Source of the DNA: Eledone cirrhosa
Taxonomy: Eukaryota
Assembly: GCA_964016885.1 (NCBI GenBank)
Contig: OZ024751.1
Span: 1,550,001 to 1,614,000 of the forward strand
Direction: 5' to 3'
DNA length: 64,000 bases
Positions 7,856 to 63,807 of the stretch are shown here, piece by piece (within the stretch, counting starts at the first letter, position 1; each line of letters opens with the position of its first letter). The notes under the pieces were generated by a model. It was not told the DNA's origin and ran no database searches. It saw only the letters and a list, made by a program, of their open reading frames with translations. Both the position numbers and the translations under genes were made by a program.

Positions 7856-8987
7856 ACAAATAAAAGAAAGCAAATCAGCGTGGCAAAAACCTTTCCAGGA
7901 TCCTTTTGAAACACTCGTAAATTATTCAGTGTTCCCACTAATTACAATTATAGACCGCAACTACTCAACTACTTCGGTATCTATTTACATCGAAATGATC
8001 ACAAACAGCTGTGATTCTCATTAATACTTTAATATTTTACAGGGATACTTTATCTAAACAGATTTATTATTCCACTAATAGTTCACAAAAACCGCCATGT
8101 TTTTTCTTCTTTATCTTATACTCCCGCTGATGACGAACACGTATAGCTAAGTTTCATTAATTATTTATTAATTTCGAGCATATTTAAAAAGAAAAATCGA
8201 GAAAAGTGATTGATTAATAAATTTTTATTATATTACCATTATAATATTAGCATTATTATATTAACGATGATAATAATAATTCTAAAAAAAGGGTCTCATT
8301 AATACCCTTTATTAAATATTCAGACAATATAGTTATTTTTTCTTCTTCAAAACAGACGACCAGTGATTGAATTACAATCTTCCCCCTTTATAAGTACTCA
8401 GATTCTTTCACACAACAACAAAGAATAAATAAAGAAATACTATTTATTAACAGATTTAAACCAAAATTAAATATGTAATCACCGCTATTAGATTCTCTCT
8501 CTCACTCTCTCTCTCACACACTCTCTCTCTCTCACACACACACGCGCGTGCGCGCACACACGCACACCACGAAATAAAGAGGAAATTGTTCATACACATA
8601 TTTTCAAAAAATTCCTGATCGAAGCCATCACTGATCCTTTGCACAGACACACCGCACTTCAAAAACAAACAAATATATATATCGTTTCTACTTTTGGCAC
8701 AAGGCCAGCAATTACCCAATGCATTACTGGTACTTTTTTGTTCTTTTTATTCTTTTTAATTCTTTTTAATTGTAATACATTTGATAAGATGGATTCGACT
8801 GATACAACGAAACCGGTTATATTTTATATATGTTATATACATTATAAAACTCTCTTTTCAAAGAATTGTTCCTCTCATTTTTTCAATAATGTTACTTTGA
8901 CGAATCAAAGAAGAAAAACAGAAAAACAGATCCTTAAATATATTTTCCGTGCTATTTCCAATTCCACCGTTTCTCTCTCTCTCTCTT

Positions 8988-16388: not shown

Positions 16389-18907
16389 GAAAACACCAGG
16401 AAGAGACATGATTGTCGGCTACTGGTACAAAAAACTAATATTCTATCGGAGGTATCTTACTGACCTCTACCAACAAGTTCTTAAGGGAGATACACTTATA
16501 CCAGAATGGTTGACATTAGCACAAACGTTACTGGTCCCCAAGAACAAAGACACCCACTTGGCAAAAAACTACCGACCCATTGCATGCCAGAACCTGATGT
16601 ATAAGATGTATACAGCCTGCCTGAACCTATTCCTCCAAGATCACTGTGAAAATAATAACATCATCACAGATGAACAAGCAGCTGGAAAGAAAAGGGTTTG
16701 GGGATGTAATGAACAACTCCTAATCAACAAAACTGCGATGTCGGAGGTGCGACAACTTAGGAGGAATATGACTACAGTCTGGCTGGACTACAAGAAAGCT
16801 TTCGATTCTGTTCCCCACTCTTGGATGATAGAGGCCCTCCAACTTGCTAAAGTCCCAGATATTATTGTCAGAGCCATAGAGAGGCTGTCTTCTTCTTGGG
16901 CTACTATCCTAAGGTTAAAGACAGAGAGGGAGGACTCTATTTTCACTGATAAAATAAAATATTGCAGGGGTATATTTCATGGGGACAGTCTCTCTGTGAT
17001 ATTGTTCATCTTGTCATTAAACCCCTTGTCCTTTCTGCTCAAGAAATGTGAGGGATACATTATTGGCTCACAAGAGGACAGAAATACAAACCTAACCCAT
17101 AACTTCTTTGTGGACGATCTGAAACTCTATGCCAAGAACATGGATGGGATGAAGAAAAATCTTGACCTGGTTACAACGTTCTCAAAGGATATAGGAATGG
17201 AGTTTGGCCAAGATAAATGCTCATACATAACTGTAAAGCGGGGAAAAACAACAACCCAATCTAGCAACATTGTCATCAATGGTCTAACTGTTTCACCGAA
17301 ATCTGATGAGGACTGCTACAGATACCTGGGGATAGATGAGAACATATCCTATAATGGTATCTGTAATAAAGAACGCGTAACCAGGGAATACTACACCCGA
17401 TTAAGAAAGATCTGGTCATCGGAACTCTCTGCGCAAAACAAAACAGTGGCTCACAATGTGTTTGCTGTGCCTGTCCTAACACCAACGTTTGGAATACTCA
17501 ATTGGACGATAGACGAAATCCGAGCAGTTGATGTTGGAACTCGAAAAATACTGAACAACACCGGAAACTTCCACATCAACAGTGACATAGACCGCCTTTA
17601 CTTGAAACGTAAGCAGGGAGGCAGAGGCCTAACATCAGTCCAGACAACATTTGAATGTCGCATCATATCTCTCCGACAACATCTACGAACCTCGAAGCGT
17701 AGGAGCCCGCTTCTCGAGCAAGTCTATCTACATGAAACAGATAAGATCATGAGAGTTTGGAAGGAACTTCTTGAGAGATATTCCCTGTGTGATAATCAAA
17801 TACTGACACCCAGGGAAGTCGCTCAGCAGTATCGCAGTGAATCCATGGATGAAAAACTGCATGCCTATCAGCAAAAAATCATGCATGGATATGTTGCCAG
17901 GAAGCTCCAGAGTGAGAGTAATATAGATAAGGAAAGTAGTCTCTCTTGGACCAACAACCGCTATATTGGCTCCCACTTTGAAGGATACGCTTTTGCAATC
18001 CAAGAACAGGAGATTAGCACGAAATACGTGATTCACAAAAGAGATAGGGATGCAGGCAAAACACCTAGATGTGATACCAAGTGCAGACTCTGCAGAACTA
18101 ACATCGAGGATATCACCCATGTCATCAGCAGCTGCCCAAAGATGTCATCGCGGTACTATCTACCTATGAGGCATGATGTAGTGGCCAAAACACTGTACAA
18201 TGCAATCCGTAAAAAAGATAGCCCCGATAATAAACACATTAAAAGCTACAACAATGTGGAAGACATCCATGTACATAATATGAAAGAGTACTGGTGGAAT
18301 GTTCCAGTAAAAACCCCAATAAAATGCAGGCATAACAGACCAGATATTATGATATGGGACAGGGAGAAGAAAACATGCACAGTAGTGGAAATTAGCTGCC
18401 CAGCAGATGCCAATATAATATCAAAGATTAGTGAAAAGGAGAATATTTATGCAGAACTGATGAGAAATCTGCAGATACTCCACCCTGATTACACCTTCAG
18501 ATTTATGCCTGTGATTATTGGGGCACTGGGATATGTTAGTAACTGTCTCAATACAAATCTTGAGAAGCTAGGCTTCACAGGAACAGAAAGAACACAACTA
18601 GTTAGGCAATTACAAGTACAATCCATTAATGGAACAGTAAAAATATGTAAAACATTACAAAATGTTTGCATCTAATAACTGCATATACACATGTACAAAT
18701 ACAAAGCATATACACATGCACACATACAACTCAAAACATACACATCCACACATACAATAACATCCATATATACACATGCATGCATGCATGCAGACATACA
18801 TATCTACCTAGTTGATGTGTAAATTCCAATGAGAGAGTCTTGTGTCTATGTTAGAAACCGACTCTCTCTCTATTGGTAAAACTTTGTGAAATTATAAAAC
18901 CAGAAAA
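16389..18907 (+). mobile_element. 5'-truncated R4-clade RLE retrotransposon with an uninterrupted 755-aa RT-RLE ORF (16408-18675), flanked by (ACAT)n
   Basis: NYRPIAC, WLDYKKAFDS, GIFHGDSLS, FVDDLKL, CRLC..H..C, RHD, RPDI..E..K..Y. (ACAT)n at 16330-16388 and 18908-18970. Confidence 0.93.
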
Positions 18908-19347: not shown

Positions 19348-19384
<37 letters not shown>

Positions 19385-19386
<2 letters not shown>

Positions 19387-19551
19387 CGAAGGAAATGTGG
19401 TAAGGAACCAGGTGGACCATAACGCACCAAAGTACTCAATACTTAGGGTAGTAGAGTGGGTAATAGGAACAAGTAAGACCCCGACGGCTGAGCTCAAGCC
19501 GTTTCGACGGCTAATTCTGGACGGCTAATTCTAGTCCAGAATTAGCCGTCG

Positions 19552-19555
<4 letters not shown>
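19385..19555 (-). mobile_element. Short PLE pLTR end of the same family as 61304-63768, with only the 3' half of the hammerhead and a short inverted tail
   Basis: Near-identical to the reverse complement of 63630-63768, flanked by (TA)n. Confidence 0.85.
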
Positions 19556-19587
<32 letters not shown>

Positions 19588-19589
<2 letters not shown>

Positions 19590-21645
19590 CAGATTAAAGT
19601 TTAAGCAAAGAATCGCTGCTTTCACCCTTAACGGGATCTTCTGAAAGAAACAAAGTCAATCTGTAAACGCAGAAGTGGATATTTCAAAAAATGTTGCAAC
19701 CGGAGGAAGACAGGAAGACGATACTTTGGTTCGTGGAAACGTTCACTGGCAAAGAACGGGAAAAAACGAATAAGATACGTCATTAATAGAAGCGGTGAAA
19801 AACAATTACGCGCAAACACAGAACCACGTTTATGGTATAAAAGAGGTCGTAGACTAATGTTCTCTTAGGTGGTTCATAGAGACGTTTTCTGGCAATGAAC
19901 GAAAAAAACGAAGATAATACGTCATATGTGGAGCGTGGAGAACAATAGCACGCAAAGACAAAACCACGTAAATGGTATAGCAGAAGTCGTAGACTAAAAT
20001 TCTAACTAGGAGACCGAATGAATCTCCGCTACAGAGTTAAGAACAAAGTAAATAAATACAATACAGAAGTAATAGAAATAAATAAATAAATACATACACG
20101 CAAACAAATACGTACATACACAAGCATACGCAAAACACTTACCATAGGTATACAAAACCACGCACATATAAAAATGTGTGTGTGTATGCGTGTATACAAA
20201 TAAATAAATAATTATATAAACGTATATAAATAAATAAATACGTATATAACAAGCGCACACACATACCTATATGTAAATACACGAGAGTTCGGAGACGTAA
20301 GTCATCCAAAACATGAAGTACGCATATACACACACCCTACATACGTACGAACCTGCATACTCACACAGACGCAAAACTCCCGTATACACATAGCCAAACC
20401 ATATGTACCACAATAAAAAAATTATACGCCATAACATAAACAATCAAATATACATACTAGAAGGTATACGTACCTTCACGAAACATACGGGTAATATATA
20501 CTTTTGCAAATAAGTAATGGTATAAACAAAACATATACTTAGCTCCCACATCAAGACGTAAAATATCCACGTATAGATCGTACTATCCTATCGTACTATA
20601 AAACTTTCCTGTATTACAGCCCCACGTTATACCCTAACGGATAGTACGATCTATACGTGGATATTTTACGTATTGATGTGGGAGCTAAGTATATGTTTTG
20701 TTTATACCATTACTTATTTGCATAGGTAAGTATATATTACCCGTATGTTTCGTGAAGGTACGTATACCTTCTCGTACGTATATTTGATTGTTTATGTTAT
20801 GGCGTATACTTTTTTTATTCTGGTACATATAGTTTGGTTATGTGTATACGGGAGTTTTGCGTCTGTGTGAGTATGCAGGTTCGTACGTATGTAGGGTGTG
20901 TGTATATGCGTACTTCATGTTTTGGATGACTTACGTCTCCGAACTCTCGTGTATTTACATGTAGGTATGTGTGTGCGCTTGTTATATACGTATTTATTTA
21001 TTTATATACGTTTATATAATTATTTATTTATTTGTATACACGCATACACACACACACATTTTTATATGTGCGTGGTTTTGTATACCTATGGTAAGTGTTT
21101 TGCGTATGCTTGTGTATGTACGTATTTGTTTGCGTGTATGTATTTATTTATTTATTTCTATTACTTCTGTATTGTATTTATTTACTTTGTTCTTAACTCT
21201 GTAGCGGAGATTCATTCGGTCTCCTAGTTAGAATTTTAGTCTACGACTTCTGCTATACCATTTACGTAGTTTTGTCTTTGCGTGCTATTGTTCTCCACGC
21301 TCCACATATGACGTATTATCTTCGTTTTTTTCGTTCATTGCCAGAGAACGTCTCTATGAACCACCTAAGAGAACATTAGTCTATGACCTCTTTTATACCA
21401 TAAACGTGGTTCTGTGTTTGCGCGTAATTGTTTTTCACCGCTCCTATTAATGACCTATCTTATTCGTTTTTTCCCGTTCTTTGCCAGCGAACGTTTCCAC
21501 GAACCAAAGTATTGTCTTCTTGTCTTCCTCCGGTTGCAACATTTTTTGAAATATCCACTTCTGCGTTTACAGATTGACTTTGTTGGTTTCAGAAGATCCC
21601 GTTAAGGGTGAAAGCAGCGATTCTTTGCTTAAACTTTAATCTGTT
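19588..21645 (+). mobile_element. ~2 kb palindrome formed by a PLE 3' end (20602-21645) and its inverted copy (19588-20590)
   Basis: Arms of ~1 kb are nearly identical. The spacer encodes TFLYYSPTLYPNG*, matching the C-terminus of PLE ORF 49026-49322 (TFLYYNTTLYPNG*). Confidence 0.9.
21586..21634 (+). ncRNA. Hammerhead-like motif with variant core CAGAAGA (copies at 19599-19647 -, ~22553-22601 -, ~22602-22649 +)
   Basis: GTTT-CAGAAGA-tCCC(gttaa)GGGt-GAAAGCA(gcgattctt)TGC-TT-AAAC. All three stems pair. Confidence 0.5.
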
Positions 21646-21759
21646 TTTTTAATAAATATTTGCTCTACAGTTCTTATATATTTGATATATATTTATCCTT
21701 ATCGAGCCCTCTTTGGATTTTAGTCTTCAAATTTATTATCATTACTATATATATATATA

Positions 21760-21950
21760 GGGCGGTGGATTGGCAGTATCGGTAAGGGTCGGACGCCATG
21801 CTTTGAAGCATAGAGTTACCTCCCTTTATGATCTGAGTTCAAATCCCGCCGAAGTTAACTTTGCCTTTCATCCTTACGGGGTCGATAAAATAAAGTACCA
21901 GTAACGCACTGGAATAATTGCTGGCCTTGTGCCAAAAGTAGAAACAATTA
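21760..21950 (+). mobile_element. tRNA-derived SINE
   Basis: A-box-like TGGCAGTATCGG, B-box GTTCAAATCC, central GCCTTTCATCCTTACGGGGTCGATAAAATAAAGTACCAG resembling the Meta/Sauria-type SINE core. Multi-copy in this window. Confidence 0.85.
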
Positions 21951-37147: not shown

Positions 37148-39582
37148 TATGTATGTTCTTCTGGTTTTATAATTTCACAAATTAGATAGAGAGTCGGTTT
37201 CTAACATAGACACAATATTCTCTCATTGGAATTTACACATCAATTAGGTAGATATGTCTGTCTGCATGCATGCGTGTGTTGATAGGGATGTTATTGTATG
37301 TGTAGATGTGGATGTTTTGAGTTGTATGTGTGCATGTGTGTATGCTTTGTATCTGTACATGTGTATATATGCAGTTGTTAGATGCAACATTTTTGGAATG
37401 TTTTACATTAATGGATTGGACTTGTAATTTCCTAACTAGTTGTGTTCTTTCTGTTCCCGTGAAGCTTAGCTTCTCAAGATTTGTATTGAGGCAGTTACTA
37501 AAATACCCCATGCCCCAATAATCACAGGCATAAATCTGAAGGTGTAATCAGGGTGGAGTATCTGCAGATTTCTCATCATTTCTGCATAAATATTCTCCTT
37601 TTCGCTAATCTTTGATATTATATTGGCATCTGCTGGGCAGCTAACTTCCACTACTGTGCATGCTTTCTTCTCTCTGTCCCATATCATAATATCTGGTCTG
37701 TTATGCCTGCATTTTATTGGGGGTTTTACTGGAACATTCCACCAGTACTCTTTCATATTATGTACATGGATGTCTTCCACATTGCTGTAGCTTTTAATTT
37801 GTTTATTATCGGGGCTATATTTTTTACGGATTGCATTGTTCAGTGTTTTGGCCACTACATCATGCCTCATAGGTAGATAGTACCGCGATGACATCTTTGG
37901 ACAGCTACTGATGTCATGGGTGATATCTTCGATGTTAGTTCTGCAGAGTCTGCACTTGTTATCACATCTAGGTGTTTTGCCTGCATCCGTATCTCTTTTG
38001 TGAATCAGGTATTTCGTTTTAATTTCCTGTTCTTGGATTGCAAAAGCGTATCCTTCAAAGTGGGAGCCGATATAGCGGTTGTTGGTCCAAGATAGACTAC
38101 TTTCCTTATCTATATTACTCTCACGCTGGAGCTTCCTGGTAACATATCCATGAATGATTTTTTGCTGATAAGCATGCAGTTTTTTATCCCTGGATTCACT
38201 GCGATACTGCTGAGCAACTTCCCTGGGTGTGAGTTTTTGATTATCACACAGGGAATATCTCTCGAGGAGTTCCTTCCCAACTCTTATGATCTTATATGTT
38301 TCATGCAGAGAGACTTGCTCGAGAGACGGGCTCCTACGCTTCGAGGTTCGTAGATGTTGTCGGAGGGATATGATGCGACATTCAAATGCTGTCTAGACTG
38401 ATGTTAGGCCTCTGCCTCCCTGCTTACGTTTCAAGTAAAGGCGGTCTATGTCACTGTTGATGTGGAAGTTTCTGGTGTTGTTTAGTATTTTTCGAGTTCC
38501 AACATCAACTGCTCAGATTTCGTCTATCGTCCAATTGAGTATTCCAAACGTTGGTGTTAGGACAGGCACAGCAAACACATTGTGAGCCACTGTTTTGTTT
38601 TGCGCAGAGAGTTCCGATGACCAAATCTTTCTTAATCGGGTGTAGTATTCCCTGGTTACGCGTTCCTTATTACAGATACCATTACAGGAAATGTTCTCAT
38701 CTATCCCCAGGTATCTGTAGCAGTCCTCATCAGATATCGGTAAAACAGTTAGGCCATTGATAACAATGTTGCTAGATTGGGTTGTTGTTTTTCCCCGCTT
38801 TACAGTCATATATGAGCATTTATCTTGGCCAAACTCCATTCCTATATCCTTTGAGAACGTTGTAACCAGGTCAAGATTTTTCTTCATCTCATCCATGTTC
38901 TTGGCAGAGAGTTTCAGATCATCCACAAAGAAATTATGGGTTAGGTTCGTATTTGTGAGCCAATGCGAGCCAATGATGTATCCTTCACATTTCTTGAGCA
39001 GAAAGGACAAGATGTTTAATGACAGATGAATAATATCACAGAGAGACTGTCTCCCTGAAATATACCCCTGCAATATTCTATTTTATCAGTGAAAATAGAA
39101 TCCCCCCTCTCTGTCTTTAACCTTAGGATAGTAGCCCAAGAAGAAGACAGCTTCTCTATGGCTCTGATAATAATATCTGGGACTTTAGCAAGTTGGAGGG
39201 CCTCTATCATCCAAGAGTGGGGAACAGAATCGAAAGCTTTCCTGTAGTCCAGCCAGACTGTAACCATATCCTTCCTAAGTTGTCGCACCTCCGACATCGC
39301 AGTTTTGTTGATTAGGAGTTGTTCAGCACATCCCCAAACCCCTTTCTTTCCAGCTGCTTGTTCATCTGTGATGATGTGATTATTTTCACAGTGATCTTGG
39401 AGGAATAGGTTCAGGTAGGCTGTATACATCTTATACATCAGGTTCTGGCATGCCATGGGTCGGTTATTTTTTGCCAAGTGGGTGTCTATGTTCTTGGGGA
39501 CCAGTAATGTTTGTGCTAATGTCAACCATTCTGGTATAAGTGTATCTCCGTTAAGAACTTGTTGGTAGAGGTCAGTAAGATA
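37148..39582 (-). mobile_element. Second, frameshifted 5'-truncated copy of the R4-clade family at 16389-18907
   Basis: ORFs 39016-39525, 38513-39073 and 37466-37894 are near-identical to ORF 16408-18675. Same 3' end ATAAAACCAGAA(A/G)AACATACATAC. Confidence 0.93.
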
Positions 39583-53924: not shown

Positions 53925-54112
53925 ATAGGAACGAGTAGGACCCCGACGGCTGAGCTCAAGCCGTTTCGACGGCTAATTCGGAATTAGCCGTCGAAAGGGC
54001 TTGAACTCAGCCGTCGGGGTCCTACTCGTTCCTATTACCCACTCTACTACCCTAAGTATTGAGTACTTTGGTGCGTTATCGTCCATCTGGTTCCTTACTA
54101 CATTTCCTTCGC
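53925..54112 (+). mobile_element. Short palindromic PLE pLTR end of the 61304-63768 family, containing only the hammerhead 3' half
   Basis: 53925-53979 is an inverted copy of 53981-54035. The remainder matches 63690-63768. Confidence 0.85.
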
Positions 54113-55205: not shown

Positions 55206-55877
55206 CTCTGATTATTTAATTTATTAATTCATCATTGAGCCACATCGTGAATGGTTGCCAAAACATATATATCTGTGACTTTGTCTAGTTTGTGTATATG
55301 TAAATATTTATATTTGATAATATCCCTTAAGGTTGAGATGCAATTTGGGCAATATTCGGCTGCGCTTTCTAGCAACCAGCCCACTCGCTGTAAGCCACAA
55401 ATCACATTCTTTCTGACTTGACCACGTCACAGTTCTTACCCATTTTGAATTCGTTTCTGGCGGGGATCATTTAAGAAATATGTTTGTCCAAGTGAGTTTG
55501 TTTCCTGATGAGTTAGAAGCTCGAGAATTTATCCTTGATAGGATATTTCCGAAAGCGAACGAAACCCTAAGGGTAGAAACGTTATCCTGGTATGTCTATA
55601 TGAATTTTTTCTTCTAACTTTAATTTTATACCTAATTGTGTATGGTTGACGGTATATTTAATCGATTTCCACATGATATTGAAATGTTGGGTAAATATTC
55701 TATAGCGGTTGATCGCGAATAGATTGCTGTCGTTTATTTATCTACTATTTCTTCATAGGTGACTTTTAATCTTATAGCCTGGTTTAATTGTTTTTTTTGT
55801 GTGCGGTTGATTTTGTTAATTGGGAGAGTAAATGGTGTATATATATTATCAAATGATTCTATGGACATACTTTATAG

Positions 55878-61258: not shown

Positions 61259-61308
<50 letters not shown>

Positions 61309-61318
61309 AACAAGTAAG

Positions 61319-61412
61319 ACCCCGACGGCTGAGCGCAAGCCGTTTCGACGGCTAATTCTGGACTGAATGAAAATTTATTCTGGTATTTAAATAGCCGAGC
61401 TTATCAAGGGGT
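61319..61412 (-). ncRNA. Hammerhead with U3-A8 core (inverted copy)
   Basis: Reverse complement of 63582-63675 with one loop III change. TTATCAA at 61401-61407. Confidence 0.75.
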
Positions 61413-63581
61413 AATTCCATATATGGTCAAAGAGATAATCACCAGGATTGGTCACATCACAAGTTAGTAGTAAATCTGTGATGGCAAATTGGTAGGGGAA
61501 GGGGTAGCTGAACTTGCCGGTAGGAGAAAAAGGGAGAGGGGGTGGAGTAGACCCATTCATGCGTTGGTAGTGCCGGCTACAGCTGGGTGTGAGGTCAAAG
61601 AAGATACTGGGGAGGGGGAGGGGGAGGAAGTCGAAACGGTAAGTAGAACAATGATGGGTAAAACTATAAAAAGTACTGAGAGAGAAAAAAAAAATAAGCA
61701 AAGTCTGGTTACTAAGACTTAAGTCTCTCGCTATTGCTAGGCTAAAGAAATACATAAATAAATAAATAAATAAATAAATAAGTGAATAAAATAACTTCGC
61801 ACAAAACATCGTCTCCTCCAACAACAAAAAACTCAACCCCGATGGAAGAAACAACCTAAATAGCAGTGGAGAGCCGACCAGGAGGTGCAACTGTCCTGAT
61901 AGATCCAGTTGCCCCCTCGACAACAGATGCAGAGACCGTAATGTGATCTACCAGTGCAACGTGAGCACGGACACCTCCAACAAAGCTTATATAGGATTAA
62001 CCGCATGTGACTTCAAGACCCGGCTATACCAACACAGACATACCTTCCGAAACCCGGCCCGGCGTCACGCCACTACACTTTCGGCCCACATATGGGACCT
62101 CAAGGACAACAACATCAACTATGATCTCACTTGGAAATTACTGTCCAGAGCCAACTCTTACACGGGAGGACGCCGTCCGTGCAATTTATGCTCGGAGGAA
62201 ACTTTACAAATGTTGTTTTCGACGGACCAACTCCTAAACAAGAAAGATGAACTGGTTACTGCATGTCAACACCGATTACGTAGGACTTACCTCGCCCTCA
62301 AACCCCATAATGACCCGGGGAGTAGACTAGGGCTATAACACCCCACTTGCCTATTTTGTAAGGGGTAACCCCTGCTTGCCAATGGAGACGTAAGATCTTC
62401 TTTTACTTTTTTTATCGCTTCCTCTATATTTCCTCCTTCCCCTCATCCCTCCCTAGTCCTTCTACCCCAGTTCCCTTTCTTTGTCGTCGTCTTTTTCTCG
62501 CCCACCCGAGGTAGCCCCTCGGTCCCTTGTAGCTTCAGCACCACCACCCCCTCCCCTATTCTATGATAGATTTGGCTGACTCCGCTTTTTATAGCAGAGG
62601 TGTTAGACCTCGGATACTTGCCCCCTTCTCCGACCGCTGTCCCTTTTTTCCGTACCTTCTATATTTCTTAGTGGCATCTTTGCTTTAATTTCTCGTTTAT
62701 CCAGTATTTCTTTCCTCTTTTTCCCTTTTTCTTGGGGGGGGGGGGGGGGTCTGTATTCATTTTCCGTTCTTTACTTTTACTTCGTACGATCTTTCATGTA
62801 GCTTGTATAAGACTTTTTGTTTCGTGGCGGTACCCTTAGAGTTAGCACGAGTATTTTTTGCGGGACCCTGAATGATATTCTCGTACTAGTTTACTTTCTT
62901 GCTCTGGGTGGTTGCTGGCCATGTGATTGGGGTAGAAACCTTTATTATTTCGTGGTAGTCTCTTTAGTATTTTGCCCCCCTTTGTTGATCCGTCACCGTA
63001 CGATACACGCACTTATACCCCGTATAAGGGTCCCTTTATTTCCGTCCCACCTAGTTTATTTTTATTTATTTTTTATTCTTCATTATGACTTTGCCTTTCA
63101 TCCTTACGGGGTCGATAAAATAAAGTACCAGTGAGGCACTGGGTAGTTGCTGGCCTTGTGCCTAAAGTAGAAACAATTATATATATATATTTTTTTTTTT
63201 TTTATTTATCCATTCTTTTATTCACTTATTTATTTATTTATGTATTTCTTTAGCCTAGCAATAGCGAGAGACTTAAGTCTTAGTAACCAGACTTTGTTTA
63301 TTTTTTTTTCTCTCTCAGTACTTTTTATAGTTTTACCCATCATTGTTCTACTTACCGTTTCGACTTCCTCCCCCTCCCCCTCCCCAGTATCTTCTTTGAC
63401 CTCACACCCAGCTGTAGCCGGCACTACCAACGCATGAATGGGTCTACTCCACCCCGTCTCCCTTTTTCTCCTACCGGCAGGTTCAGCTACCCCTTCCCCT
63501 ACCAATTTGCCATCACAGATTTACTACTAACTTGTGATGTGACCAATCCTGGTGATTAACTCTTTAACCATATATGGAATT

Positions 63582-63675
63582 ACCCCTTGATAAGCTCGGC
63601 TATTTAAATACCAGAATAAATTTTCATTCAGTCCAGAATTAGCCGTCGAAACGGCTTGAGCTCAGCCGTCGGGGT
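63582..63675 (+). ncRNA. Type I hammerhead with compensatory U3-A8 core (UUGAUAA)
   Basis: ACCCC-TTGATAA-GctCGGCTA(37 nt)TAGCCGtC-GAAACGGCT(tgagctc)AGCCG-TC-GGGGT. GUC site, predicted cut after 63670. Confidence 0.78.
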
Positions 63676-63766
63676 CTTACTTGTTCCTATTATCCACTCT
63701 ACTACCCTAAGTATTAAGTACTTTGGTGCGTTATGGTCCACCTGGTTCCTTACCACATTTCCTTCG

Positions 63767-63807
<41 letters not shown>

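What the first reader, a model, noticed from the sequence alone, without database searches (positions are those of the whole stretch)
63582..63675. Penelope pLTR hammerhead with a natural compensatory U3-A8 catalytic core
Seen: complete type I hammerhead geometry (5-bp stem I, 6-bp stem II arm, 6-bp stem III, GAAA, GUC site) in which CUGAUGA is replaced by UUGAUAA. It is present in both inverted pLTRs (also 61319-61412), and the 3' half recurs at ~19478-19515 and ~53940-54020. Known: C3 and G8 form a Watson-Crick pair in the active hammerhead fold, and PLE pLTRs carry hammerheads. Inference: the two changes hit exactly the two pairing positions, so this looks like a functional covariant that CUGANGA searches would miss. 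The two full copies come from one insertion event and are not independent evidence.
Basis: partly seen in the sequence, partly recalled or inferred. Interest (0 to 1): 0.82.

Follow-up and report, generated by a model that had tools for sequence, protein, structure and literature searches.

The report
Retrotransposon hammerhead with fossil cut sites
A hammerhead self-cutting RNA motif with an already published U-A core sits in a very abundant jumping gene, and about 150 genomic insertions begin exactly at its predicted cut site, which likely records cutting in living cells, apparently even in lineages whose core pair is mismatched.

Summary
The motif is real: a type I hammerhead in the pLTR of a 5'-truncated Hydra-clade Penelope-like element. 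U3-A8 is inherited, not decay: 3,736 of 5,128 exact core matches genome-wide. Natural U3-A8 cores are already published, also in PLEs (PMC3088659, PMC4209133), and this scan noted them before in other genomes. "Compensatory" fails within the family: only 6 copies are C3-G8, 1,352 are C3·A8, and the endonuclease tree suggests U3→C3→U3 with A8 fixed.

Not found in my literature searches: (1) about 150 mini-insertions whose two arms stop at the first base after the predicted cut (274 strand matches; control 4 nt upstream: 1), likely a fossil of in-vivo cleavage; (2) 13 of 54 listed such insertions resemble the C3·A8 lineage, about its share of full cores; (3) most of about 44,000 3'-half copies start inside loop II, the likely transcription start.

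Best reading: a leaky ribozyme that cuts a minority of transcripts and tolerates wobble at 3·8. No RNA or bench data; the footprint rests on one control position.

The parts
63582..63675 (+). Complete type I hammerhead motif, U3-A8 core (63587-93), predicted scissile bond C63670/G63671
61319..61412 (-). Second complete copy in the inverted arm of the same insertion; not independent
63603..63639 (+). Loop II (37 nt) with an AT-rich TATA-like box near 63601-08 and an initiator-like TCAGTC at 63628-33 (consensus recalled); A63630 (+1) is the inferred transcription start, where most mini-copies begin
   Evidence: promoter role inferred
63671..63770 (+). Tail after the cut site, with two inferred reverse-transcription start points, +61 (63690) and +141 (about 63770), each followed by (TA)n in genomic copies
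   Evidence: 55 and 76 of 246 alignment ends; model from PMC11167929
61790..63770 (+). Forward arm: 5'-truncated Hydra-clade PLE (endonuclease end, 3' UTR, pLTR, tail)
61790..62338 (+). ORF remnant: C-terminal GIY-YIG-type endonuclease with CxCx5C linker, CxxC and CxH; 96-99% identical to the other 149 scored genomic copies
61304..61790 (-). Inverted pLTR arm ending at +61 in (TA)n; 97.3% identical to 63205-63690
63085..63189 (+). Fragment of an unrelated dispersed repeat, absent from relatives' 3' UTR; later insertion
   Evidence: (D19, D20)
19380..19554 (-). Mini-insertion of the same family: +1..+141 arm plus short inverted piece, in (TA)n; 3' half of the hammerhead only
53925..54112 (+). 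Two-armed mini-insertion (inverted +61 arm, forward +141 arm); tail haplotype of the class that mostly carries C3·A8

Best explanation
This is a type I hammerhead motif with an inherited U3-A8 core in the pLTR of a recently active Hydra-clade Penelope-like retrotransposon, and it likely acts as a leaky ribozyme that cuts a minority of element transcripts after C63670. Shown: geometry, family membership, lineage-wide U3-A8, no 3-8 covariation, and about 150 insertions whose arms stop at the first base after the predicted cut. Inferred steps: (1) transcription starts at A63630 inside loop II, so ordinary 5' ends carry only the 3' half, and a whole ribozyme forms only in read-through RNA at the downstream or tandem pLTR. 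[quoted passage not shown] (3) Both start points lie downstream of the cut, so complete cleavage would detach them from the ORF unless the RNA is re-ligated into a circle; slow cleavage would therefore be tolerated or favoured. (4) The 3·8 slot needs pyrimidine·purine geometry rather than a Watson-Crick pair here (U·G, U-A and C·A lineages exist, no C-G lineage was found), possibly helped by the element's own protein.
For: Core counts. Cut-site footprint: 274 strand matches (54 loci in the first 100 rows; 47 with both arms exactly at +42, 7 with a C before the second G run; counted by eye) against 1 for arms stopping at +38. The 14 first-listed loci all read +61 arm and tail-bearing arm joined at +42, beside TA-rich flanks; in 34 fetched loci the spacers are 0-4 nt, mostly A/T, and 63 of 68 arms have exactly four G. 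The cut site was named before the test. +1 wall: 73 of 85 3'-half anchors stop at -6..+6 (upper bound set by the anchor); 54 of 100 tail anchors stop at -3..+7, 9 run through the core; 43,853 3'-half matches against 5,128 cores. C3 grade is not one clade on the endonuclease tree (40 rows, p-AU 1e-6). Of 16 CCTAC-class footprints 13 are nearest to C3 copies, 1 to U3, 2 tie. Across 11 lineages the stem changes at +15 and +38 keep G·U pairs, and the youngest lineage gains A10.2-U11.2 and has the hammerhead as its minimum-energy fold. PMC11167929: two internal start sites, protein-assisted hammerhead, cleavage not needed for insertion in vitro.
Against: No RNA data and no assay. One control position for the double-ended test; the single-arm test is weak (939 against 239, with 10 of 20 fetched hits not being junctions at the cut site), and only 5 of 36 intermediate stops in the unbiased sample fall at +41..+43 (about 2 expected), several explained by microhomology. 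In vitro, a natural CUGANAA hammerhead was inactive (PMC8490949) and all core mutants but the G-C swap, U3-A8 included by implication, had low activity in a type III construct (PMC9901934). Assigning footprints to C3 lineages rests mostly on one tail base (+135; margin 1-2 nt), and an unsampled U3 lineage could share it. This subfamily's minimum-energy fold is not the hammerhead. Old CATAC-class copies give few footprints (3 of 54 against 30 of 84 classifiable tail copies), which a reverse-transcriptase stall at a stronger stem III would also predict. Core invariance is partly built into my search pattern; the tree has no outgroup.
Confidence: 0.6

Rival explanations
1. A Watson-Crick 3-8 pair is required. 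C3·A8 cores are dead, and their RNAs were cut in trans: because the start site lies in loop II, each capped 5' end is a free substrate strand that can pair through stems I and II with a U3-A8 enzyme strand from another copy.
For: Positions 3 and 8 lie in the 5' half and the cut site in the 3' half, which are split at +1. This predicts equal footprint rates for C3 and U3 lineages, as seen. The lineage returned to U3. CUGANAA was inactive in vitro (PMC8490949). One locus has one arm at +1 and the other at +43 (L212 = L232).
Against: Only 5 + 6-8 bp would hold the strands. The free 5' end is predicted to hide its stem II strand and GAAA in a hairpin (+12..+27, low ensemble frequency). During the C3 phase enzyme strands could come only from older, decaying copies.
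Confidence: 0.2
2. The motif is catalytically dead or irrelevant. It is kept as promoter and RT-recognition sequence, and the +42 ends come from RT stalling, a protein nuclease or a minor start site.
For: C3·A8 and U·G lineages amplified. Most templates were copied through the site uncut. Footprints rise with the longer stem III. PMC11167929 found no RNA-seq ends at the cut site of another PLE, and cleavage was dispensable in vitro.
Against: A stall at stem III should copy unpaired C17 and end at +41, and a stall at stem I at +47; 47 of 54 listed loci end at +42 on both arms. An extra G is seen before +1 in 15 of 74 arms (0 of 116 read-through copies) but in only 5 of 68 arms at +42 (weak, some +1 cases are microhomology). 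The youngest lineage's changes favour the ribozyme fold.
Confidence: 0.17
3. The locus is a canonical CUGANGA hammerhead with two decay mutations.
For: None found.
Against: 6 C3-G8 against 3,736 U3-A8 matches; copies with an intact ORF, picked by protein, all carry U3-A8.
Confidence: 0.01

Closest known systems
U3-A8 hammerheads of Cercyon Penelope-like elements, Schistosoma mansoni (Cervera and De la Pena 2014, PMC4209133; main text read)
   Same: U3-A8 core in a PLE pLTR, type I, short stem I, more than a thousand genomic copies
   Different: Those are minimal motifs without a real stem III; this one has a 6-bp stem III, a 37-nt loop II and a bulged stem II like the D. virilis motif. That paper reports no C3·A8 lineages and no cut-site footprint.
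Natural U3-A8 covariants (Perreault et al. 2011, PMC3088659; section 8 and passages read)
   Same: Same base change, described there as compensatory and active in vitro (citing Przybilski and Hammann 2007, which I could not open)
   Different: Here positions 3 and 8 vary independently; 26% of cores are C3·A8.
Hydra-clade PLEs, nearest listed Hydra-1_Obim (Craig et al. 2021, PMC8557442; section 11, passages, supplement tables read)
   Same: RW-K/R, DKT, CxCx5C, no CCHH, CxxC and CxH, (TA)n targets, hammerhead near the 3' end; the ORF aligns by eye along the roughly 400 residues shown
   Different: Another family: all 26 Hydra rows in their File S2 have CUGANGA cores and short loops II; the unit here is 3,531 bp against under about 3 kb.
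Poseidon element PAc of Anolis (Frangieh et al. 2024, PMC11167929; main text read)
   Same: Two internal RT start sites that define a tail; both target strands extended; uncut RNA is the main template
   Different: Canonical core; 30-40 nt tail described for PLEs against about 80 nt here; no ends at the cut site were found in RNA-seq, whereas genomic copies here stop at it.

Membership tests
Type I hammerhead ribozyme | Three helices around the core, stem I open | tested here: met
Type I hammerhead ribozyme | U4 G5 A6 A9, G12 A13 A14, A15.1-U16.1, H17, G10.1-C11.1 | tested here: met
   (partly fixed by the search pattern)
Type I hammerhead ribozyme | Watson-Crick pair 3-8 | tested here: met
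   U-A at this locus and in 3,736 of 5,128 cores; not met in 1,386
Type I hammerhead ribozyme | Covariation of 3 with 8, and compensatory changes in stems | tested here: not met
   No 3-8 association; only one-sided G·U-keeping stem changes among 11 lineages
Type I hammerhead ribozyme | Match to an Rfam hammerhead model | tested here: not met
   none at E<=5; the two canonical minimal motifs in the window were missed too, so sensitivity is low
Type I hammerhead ribozyme | Self-cleavage 3' of H17 | tested here: inconclusive
   Indirect only: genomic ends at the site; no assay
Type I hammerhead ribozyme | Loop I-loop II tertiary contact | not tested
   No candidate looked for
Hydra-clade Penelope-like element | Single ORF, RT then C-terminal GIY-YIG-type endonuclease | tested here: met
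   717 aa from the first ATG in L042, with RDD and endonuclease motifs read directly; Pfam and PDB searches were blank
Hydra-clade Penelope-like element | RWK-like and DKT motifs, CxCx5C linker, no CCHH, CxxC and CxH | tested here: met
   RWR, DKT, CNCPDRSIC, CNLC, CKH in P0001 against the definition
Hydra-clade Penelope-like element | pLTRs from tandem or inverted copies; insertion in (TA)n | tested here: met
   (five motifs at 3,531-bp spacing, adjacent units 1 mismatch apart)
Hydra-clade Penelope-like element | Placement in the clade on an RT tree | not tested
   Published proteins compared by eye only
Minimal dimer-type PLE hammerhead | Stem III of 1-2 bp, needing a dimer | tested here: not met
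   6-bp stem III, though its loop holds a 6-nt palindrome

The most novel reading that the evidence does not exclude
The genome holds a fossil read-out of in-vivo cleavage by a Penelope-element hammerhead, lineage by lineage, and it shows that a C3·A8 core, which is inactive in vitro in other hammerheads, cut at about the rate of U3-A8. The element's promoter fires from inside loop II and splits the ribozyme, so that only read-through RNA is cut, and leaky cleavage sets the balance between junk mini-insertions and full-length or tandem copies.
Probability: 0.35. Interest if true: 0.8.

Novelty: new variant of a known kind. Interest (0 to 1): 0.58.

Why it matters
The U3-A8 swap alone is old news. 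But whether PLE hammerheads cut in vivo, and what for, is open: Craig et al. call their function unclear, and Frangieh et al. found no RNA ends at the cut site. Insertions that stop at the scissile bond would be direct-looking evidence, countable in any assembled genome without RNA. A natural lineage series U·G, U-A, C·A, U-A in one sequence background gives a ready set for testing how strict the 3-8 pair is in cells. CUGANGA descriptors miss over 5,000 cores in this genome.

Tried and rejected
Rfam scan: no hammerhead; hits were microsatellite-driven miRNA models. Pfam and PDB: blank for the ORF. Single-arm count at the cut site: confounded by G-run slippage and microhomology, so given little weight; its 100-row listing was classified only roughly by eye. 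Loop II as poly(A) signal: AATAAA occurs only in this subfamily, rejected. Loop II end as splice acceptor (YAG): considered; the sharp pile-up of genomic 5' ends fits an RNA end better, but splicing was not tested. Two seemingly mixed-subfamily arms (L280, L281) are later point mutations. The short pLTR tree has an artefactual midpoint root (rows running into TA repeats) and was used for topology only; the 3' UTR tree lacked the old lineages (53 of 170 rows kept). Rolling-circle origin of the five-unit array: compatible, not distinguishable from read-through. The folding loop stopped after 4 lineages, so no C3 lineage was folded. Not held: PMC3334697, PMC1986816, PMC5785218, PMC2271363. No look-alike or same-genome earlier notes.

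Full report
1. Observation. The motif is as described: stem I 63582-86/63671-75, core TTGATAA 63587-93, G10.1-C11.1, a 2x1 internal loop, six more stem II pairs around a 37-nt loop, GAAA, a 6-bp stem III, and GUC with C17 at 63670. The minus-strand copy at 61319-61412 belongs to the inverted arm of the same insertion (97.3% over 487 nt). The recurrences near 19.5 kb and 54 kb are 3' halves only. Rfam does not see the motif. Alone it folds at z = -1.8, and an alternative fold built on the hairpin at 63641-56 is 2.4 kcal/mol better than the best hammerhead fold.

2. Host element. The arms flank the end of an ORF (61790-62338). A protein search of the genome gave 65,262 candidates; the other 149 of the 150 scored are 96-99% identical. 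Full copies have a 3,531-bp unit and an ORF of 717 aa from the first ATG; one array has five motifs at unit spacing, adjacent units one mismatch apart. The protein has RWR, DKT, a CxCx5C linker, CxxC and CxH, and no CCHH, and copies end in (TA)n. These are the Hydra-clade marks in PMC8557442. By eye it follows Hydra-1_Obim along the part shown but is another family with another hammerhead. Pfam and PDB searches were blank, so the assignment rests on motifs. The host is not identified; likeness to an octopus element is only a hint.

3. Is U3-A8 inherited and compensatory? Exact 24-nt patterns with fixed flanks gave U3-A8 3,736, C3 with A or G at 8 1,358, of these C3-G8 6, and U3·G8 34; reversed controls were 0. 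These are lower bounds and count both arms of an insertion. So decay is excluded, but so is covariation: 10.6 C3-G8 are expected under independence, 6 are seen (p = 0.11). The C3·A8 copies form true subfamilies with linked diagnostic bases. A tree of the endonuclease end (40 rows, at most 5 per haplotype, hammerhead columns not included) is a ladder: diverged U3-A8 copies, a C3·A8 grade, then the young U3-A8 clade (98/95) holding the window's subfamily. Holding the 10 C3 rows together is rejected (p-AU 1e-6; one sporadic C3 row, L070, was left out of that group). There is no outgroup; direction is read from midpoint rooting and terminal branch lengths. A further diverged lineage has U3·G8 (16 of the 34 rows). 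Among 11 lineages sorted from 158 of 170 cores, positions 3, 7, 8, 10.2, +15, +35, +38, loop II and the first base of stem I (2 of 3 copies in one small lineage) vary; +15 and +38 keep G·U pairs. Part of the invariance is imposed by my pattern. That C·A+ and U·G wobbles are isosteric is recalled knowledge.

4. Where the RNA starts and where reverse transcription starts. The 3' half occurs 43,853 times and the tail 39,004 times, against 5,128 cores. Of 85 anchors from the start of contig C1, 73 stop at -6..+6 relative to A63630 and 12 run on. Of 100 tail-anchored copies, 54 stop at -3..+7, 36 at +12..+63, 1 at -16, and 9 run through the core. A TCAGTC or TTAGTC word spans +1 and an AT-rich box lies about 29 nt upstream (resemblance to initiator and TATA consensus is recalled). 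An untemplated G precedes +1 in 15 of 74 arms, never in 116 read-through copies, as copying of a cap would give; some cases are microhomology. I infer a start site in loop II. PMC2377424 reports an internal promoter in the D. virilis Penelope pLTR. 3' ends fall at +61 and about +141 (55 and 76 of 246 alignments), matching the two internal RT start sites of PMC11167929. The commonest product is a two-armed mini-insertion in (TA)n.

5. Footprint at the cut site. If cleaved RNA served as template, arms should stop at G63671 (+42). The single-arm test was weak: 939 against 239 at +47/48, but 10 of 20 fetched hits were not junctions at the cut site (mostly G-run slippage) and some junctions were microhomology; in the unbiased sample 5 of 36 intermediate stops lie at +41..+43. 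The double-ended test was strong: 274 strand matches (about 150 loci, scaling from 54 loci per 100 rows) with the first arm ending exactly at +42 and the second within 4 nt, against 1 with the first arm ending at +38. The control pattern is 8 nt longer and covers one position only. By eye, 47 of the 54 listed loci stop at +42 on both arms. The 14 first-listed loci all show a +61 arm and a tail-bearing arm joined at +42; 4 are of the window's own subfamily. In 34 fetched loci (those 14, plus 20 chosen mainly for the rarer classes) spacers are 0-4 nt and A/T-rich, as untemplated addition at a template end would give. A stall at stem III should end at +41 and at stem I at +47 (inference). Roughly 2% of tail arms start at +42 and 9-14% run through an uncut core, so perhaps one in five or six whole-ribozyme templates had been cut; this is a crude estimate.

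6. Which lineages were cut? Of the 54 listed loci, 35 are CTTAC class, 16 CCTAC class and 3 CATAC class (after), against 41, 13 and 30 among 84 classifiable copies of the unbiased 100. In the CCTAC class, base +135 is T in 15 of 17 C3 copies and C in 6 of 6 U3 copies; 13 of the 16 footprints are nearest to C3 copies, 1 to U3, 2 tie. That is 24% of footprints, against 26% of cores and 16 of 100 tail copies. So RNA of the mismatch lineage seems to have been cut as often. The margin is 1-2 nt and an unsampled U3 lineage with T135 could blur it. This sits badly with in-vitro data: a natural CUGANAA motif did not cleave (PMC8490949), and only the G-C swap rescued the pair in a type III construct (PMC9901934). 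Either the cellular context or the element's protein relaxes the pair (protein assistance is shown for PAc), or cutting was in trans, or the ends are not ribozyme products.

7. Mechanism. Best (0.6): a leaky cis ribozyme, whole only in read-through RNA, tolerant of wobble at 3·8. Both RT start points lie 3' of the cut, so efficient cleavage would turn templates into 120-bp stubs unless circles form; weak cores cost little and may help. Rivals: strict pair with trans cleavage through the split at +1 (0.2); dead motif with non-ribozyme ends (0.17); decay (0.01).

8. Known and new. U3-A8 in nature: PMC3088659. U3-A8 in PLE pLTRs: PMC4209133. Earlier scan notes report it in other genomes (seven findings, unchecked AI notes). 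I found no report of C3·A8 PLE lineages, of genomic copies ending at the scissile bond, or of a start site in loop II in searches; the library lacks key papers, and supplements of PMC4209133 and PMC11167929 were not opened and may bear on this. Seen: PMC4209133 parts 1-3 of 4; PMC11167929 parts 1-2 of 4; PMC8557442 passages, section 11, supplement part 2 and search hits; PMC3088659 section 8 and passages; PMC9901934, PMC8490949, PMC6765202 and PMC2377424 passages; bioRxiv 10.64898/2026.07.22.740005 part 1 of 5.

9. Verdict. Observation confirmed; interpretation partly supported. The finding as written is a known kind. The family-scale evidence around it makes an open question testable. New variant of a known kind, interest 0.58.

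Noticed in passing
window 28493 (-) and 24067 (-), core starts: Two identical minimal hammerhead motifs with canonical CUGAUGA core and CG-only loop III, likely another Penelope-like family.
   Followed up: no
window 29882 (+) and 29765 (-): Inverted pair of CUGAUGAG motifs with a possible long stem II and GAAA running into (TA)n; looks like a truncated canonical hammerhead of a third family.
   Followed up: no
window 55505-55570 (+): CUGAUGAG followed about 50 nt later by GAAAC and a short hairpin; did not pass the descriptor.
   Followed up: no
window 16453-18530 and 37506-39582: About 2.1-kb element in two opposite copies, 95-96% alike; reads like coding sequence of a retroelement.
   Followed up: no
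window 63085-63189; relatives at 21814, 29582, 35686, 8661-8739: SINE-like dispersed repeat; one fragment is inserted in this element's 3' UTR.
   Followed up: partly
L001:2724-2912, just right of the window end: Another two-armed mini-insertion of this family, about 0.8 kb past the window.
   Followed up: partly
L041/L042 (G000:C1:437.198-437.215 Mb): Head-to-tail array with five hammerheads at 3,531-bp spacing and intact ORFs, ending at +61 in (TA)n.
   Followed up: partly
window 19574-21659: Nested long inverted repeats (690 nt at 92%, 341 nt at 97%) right beside the mini-insertion at 19.5 kb.
   Followed up: no
L313: One insertion whose two arms differ at position 3 (U in one, C in the other), a sign that sporadic change at this base also occurs after insertion.
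   Followed up: no
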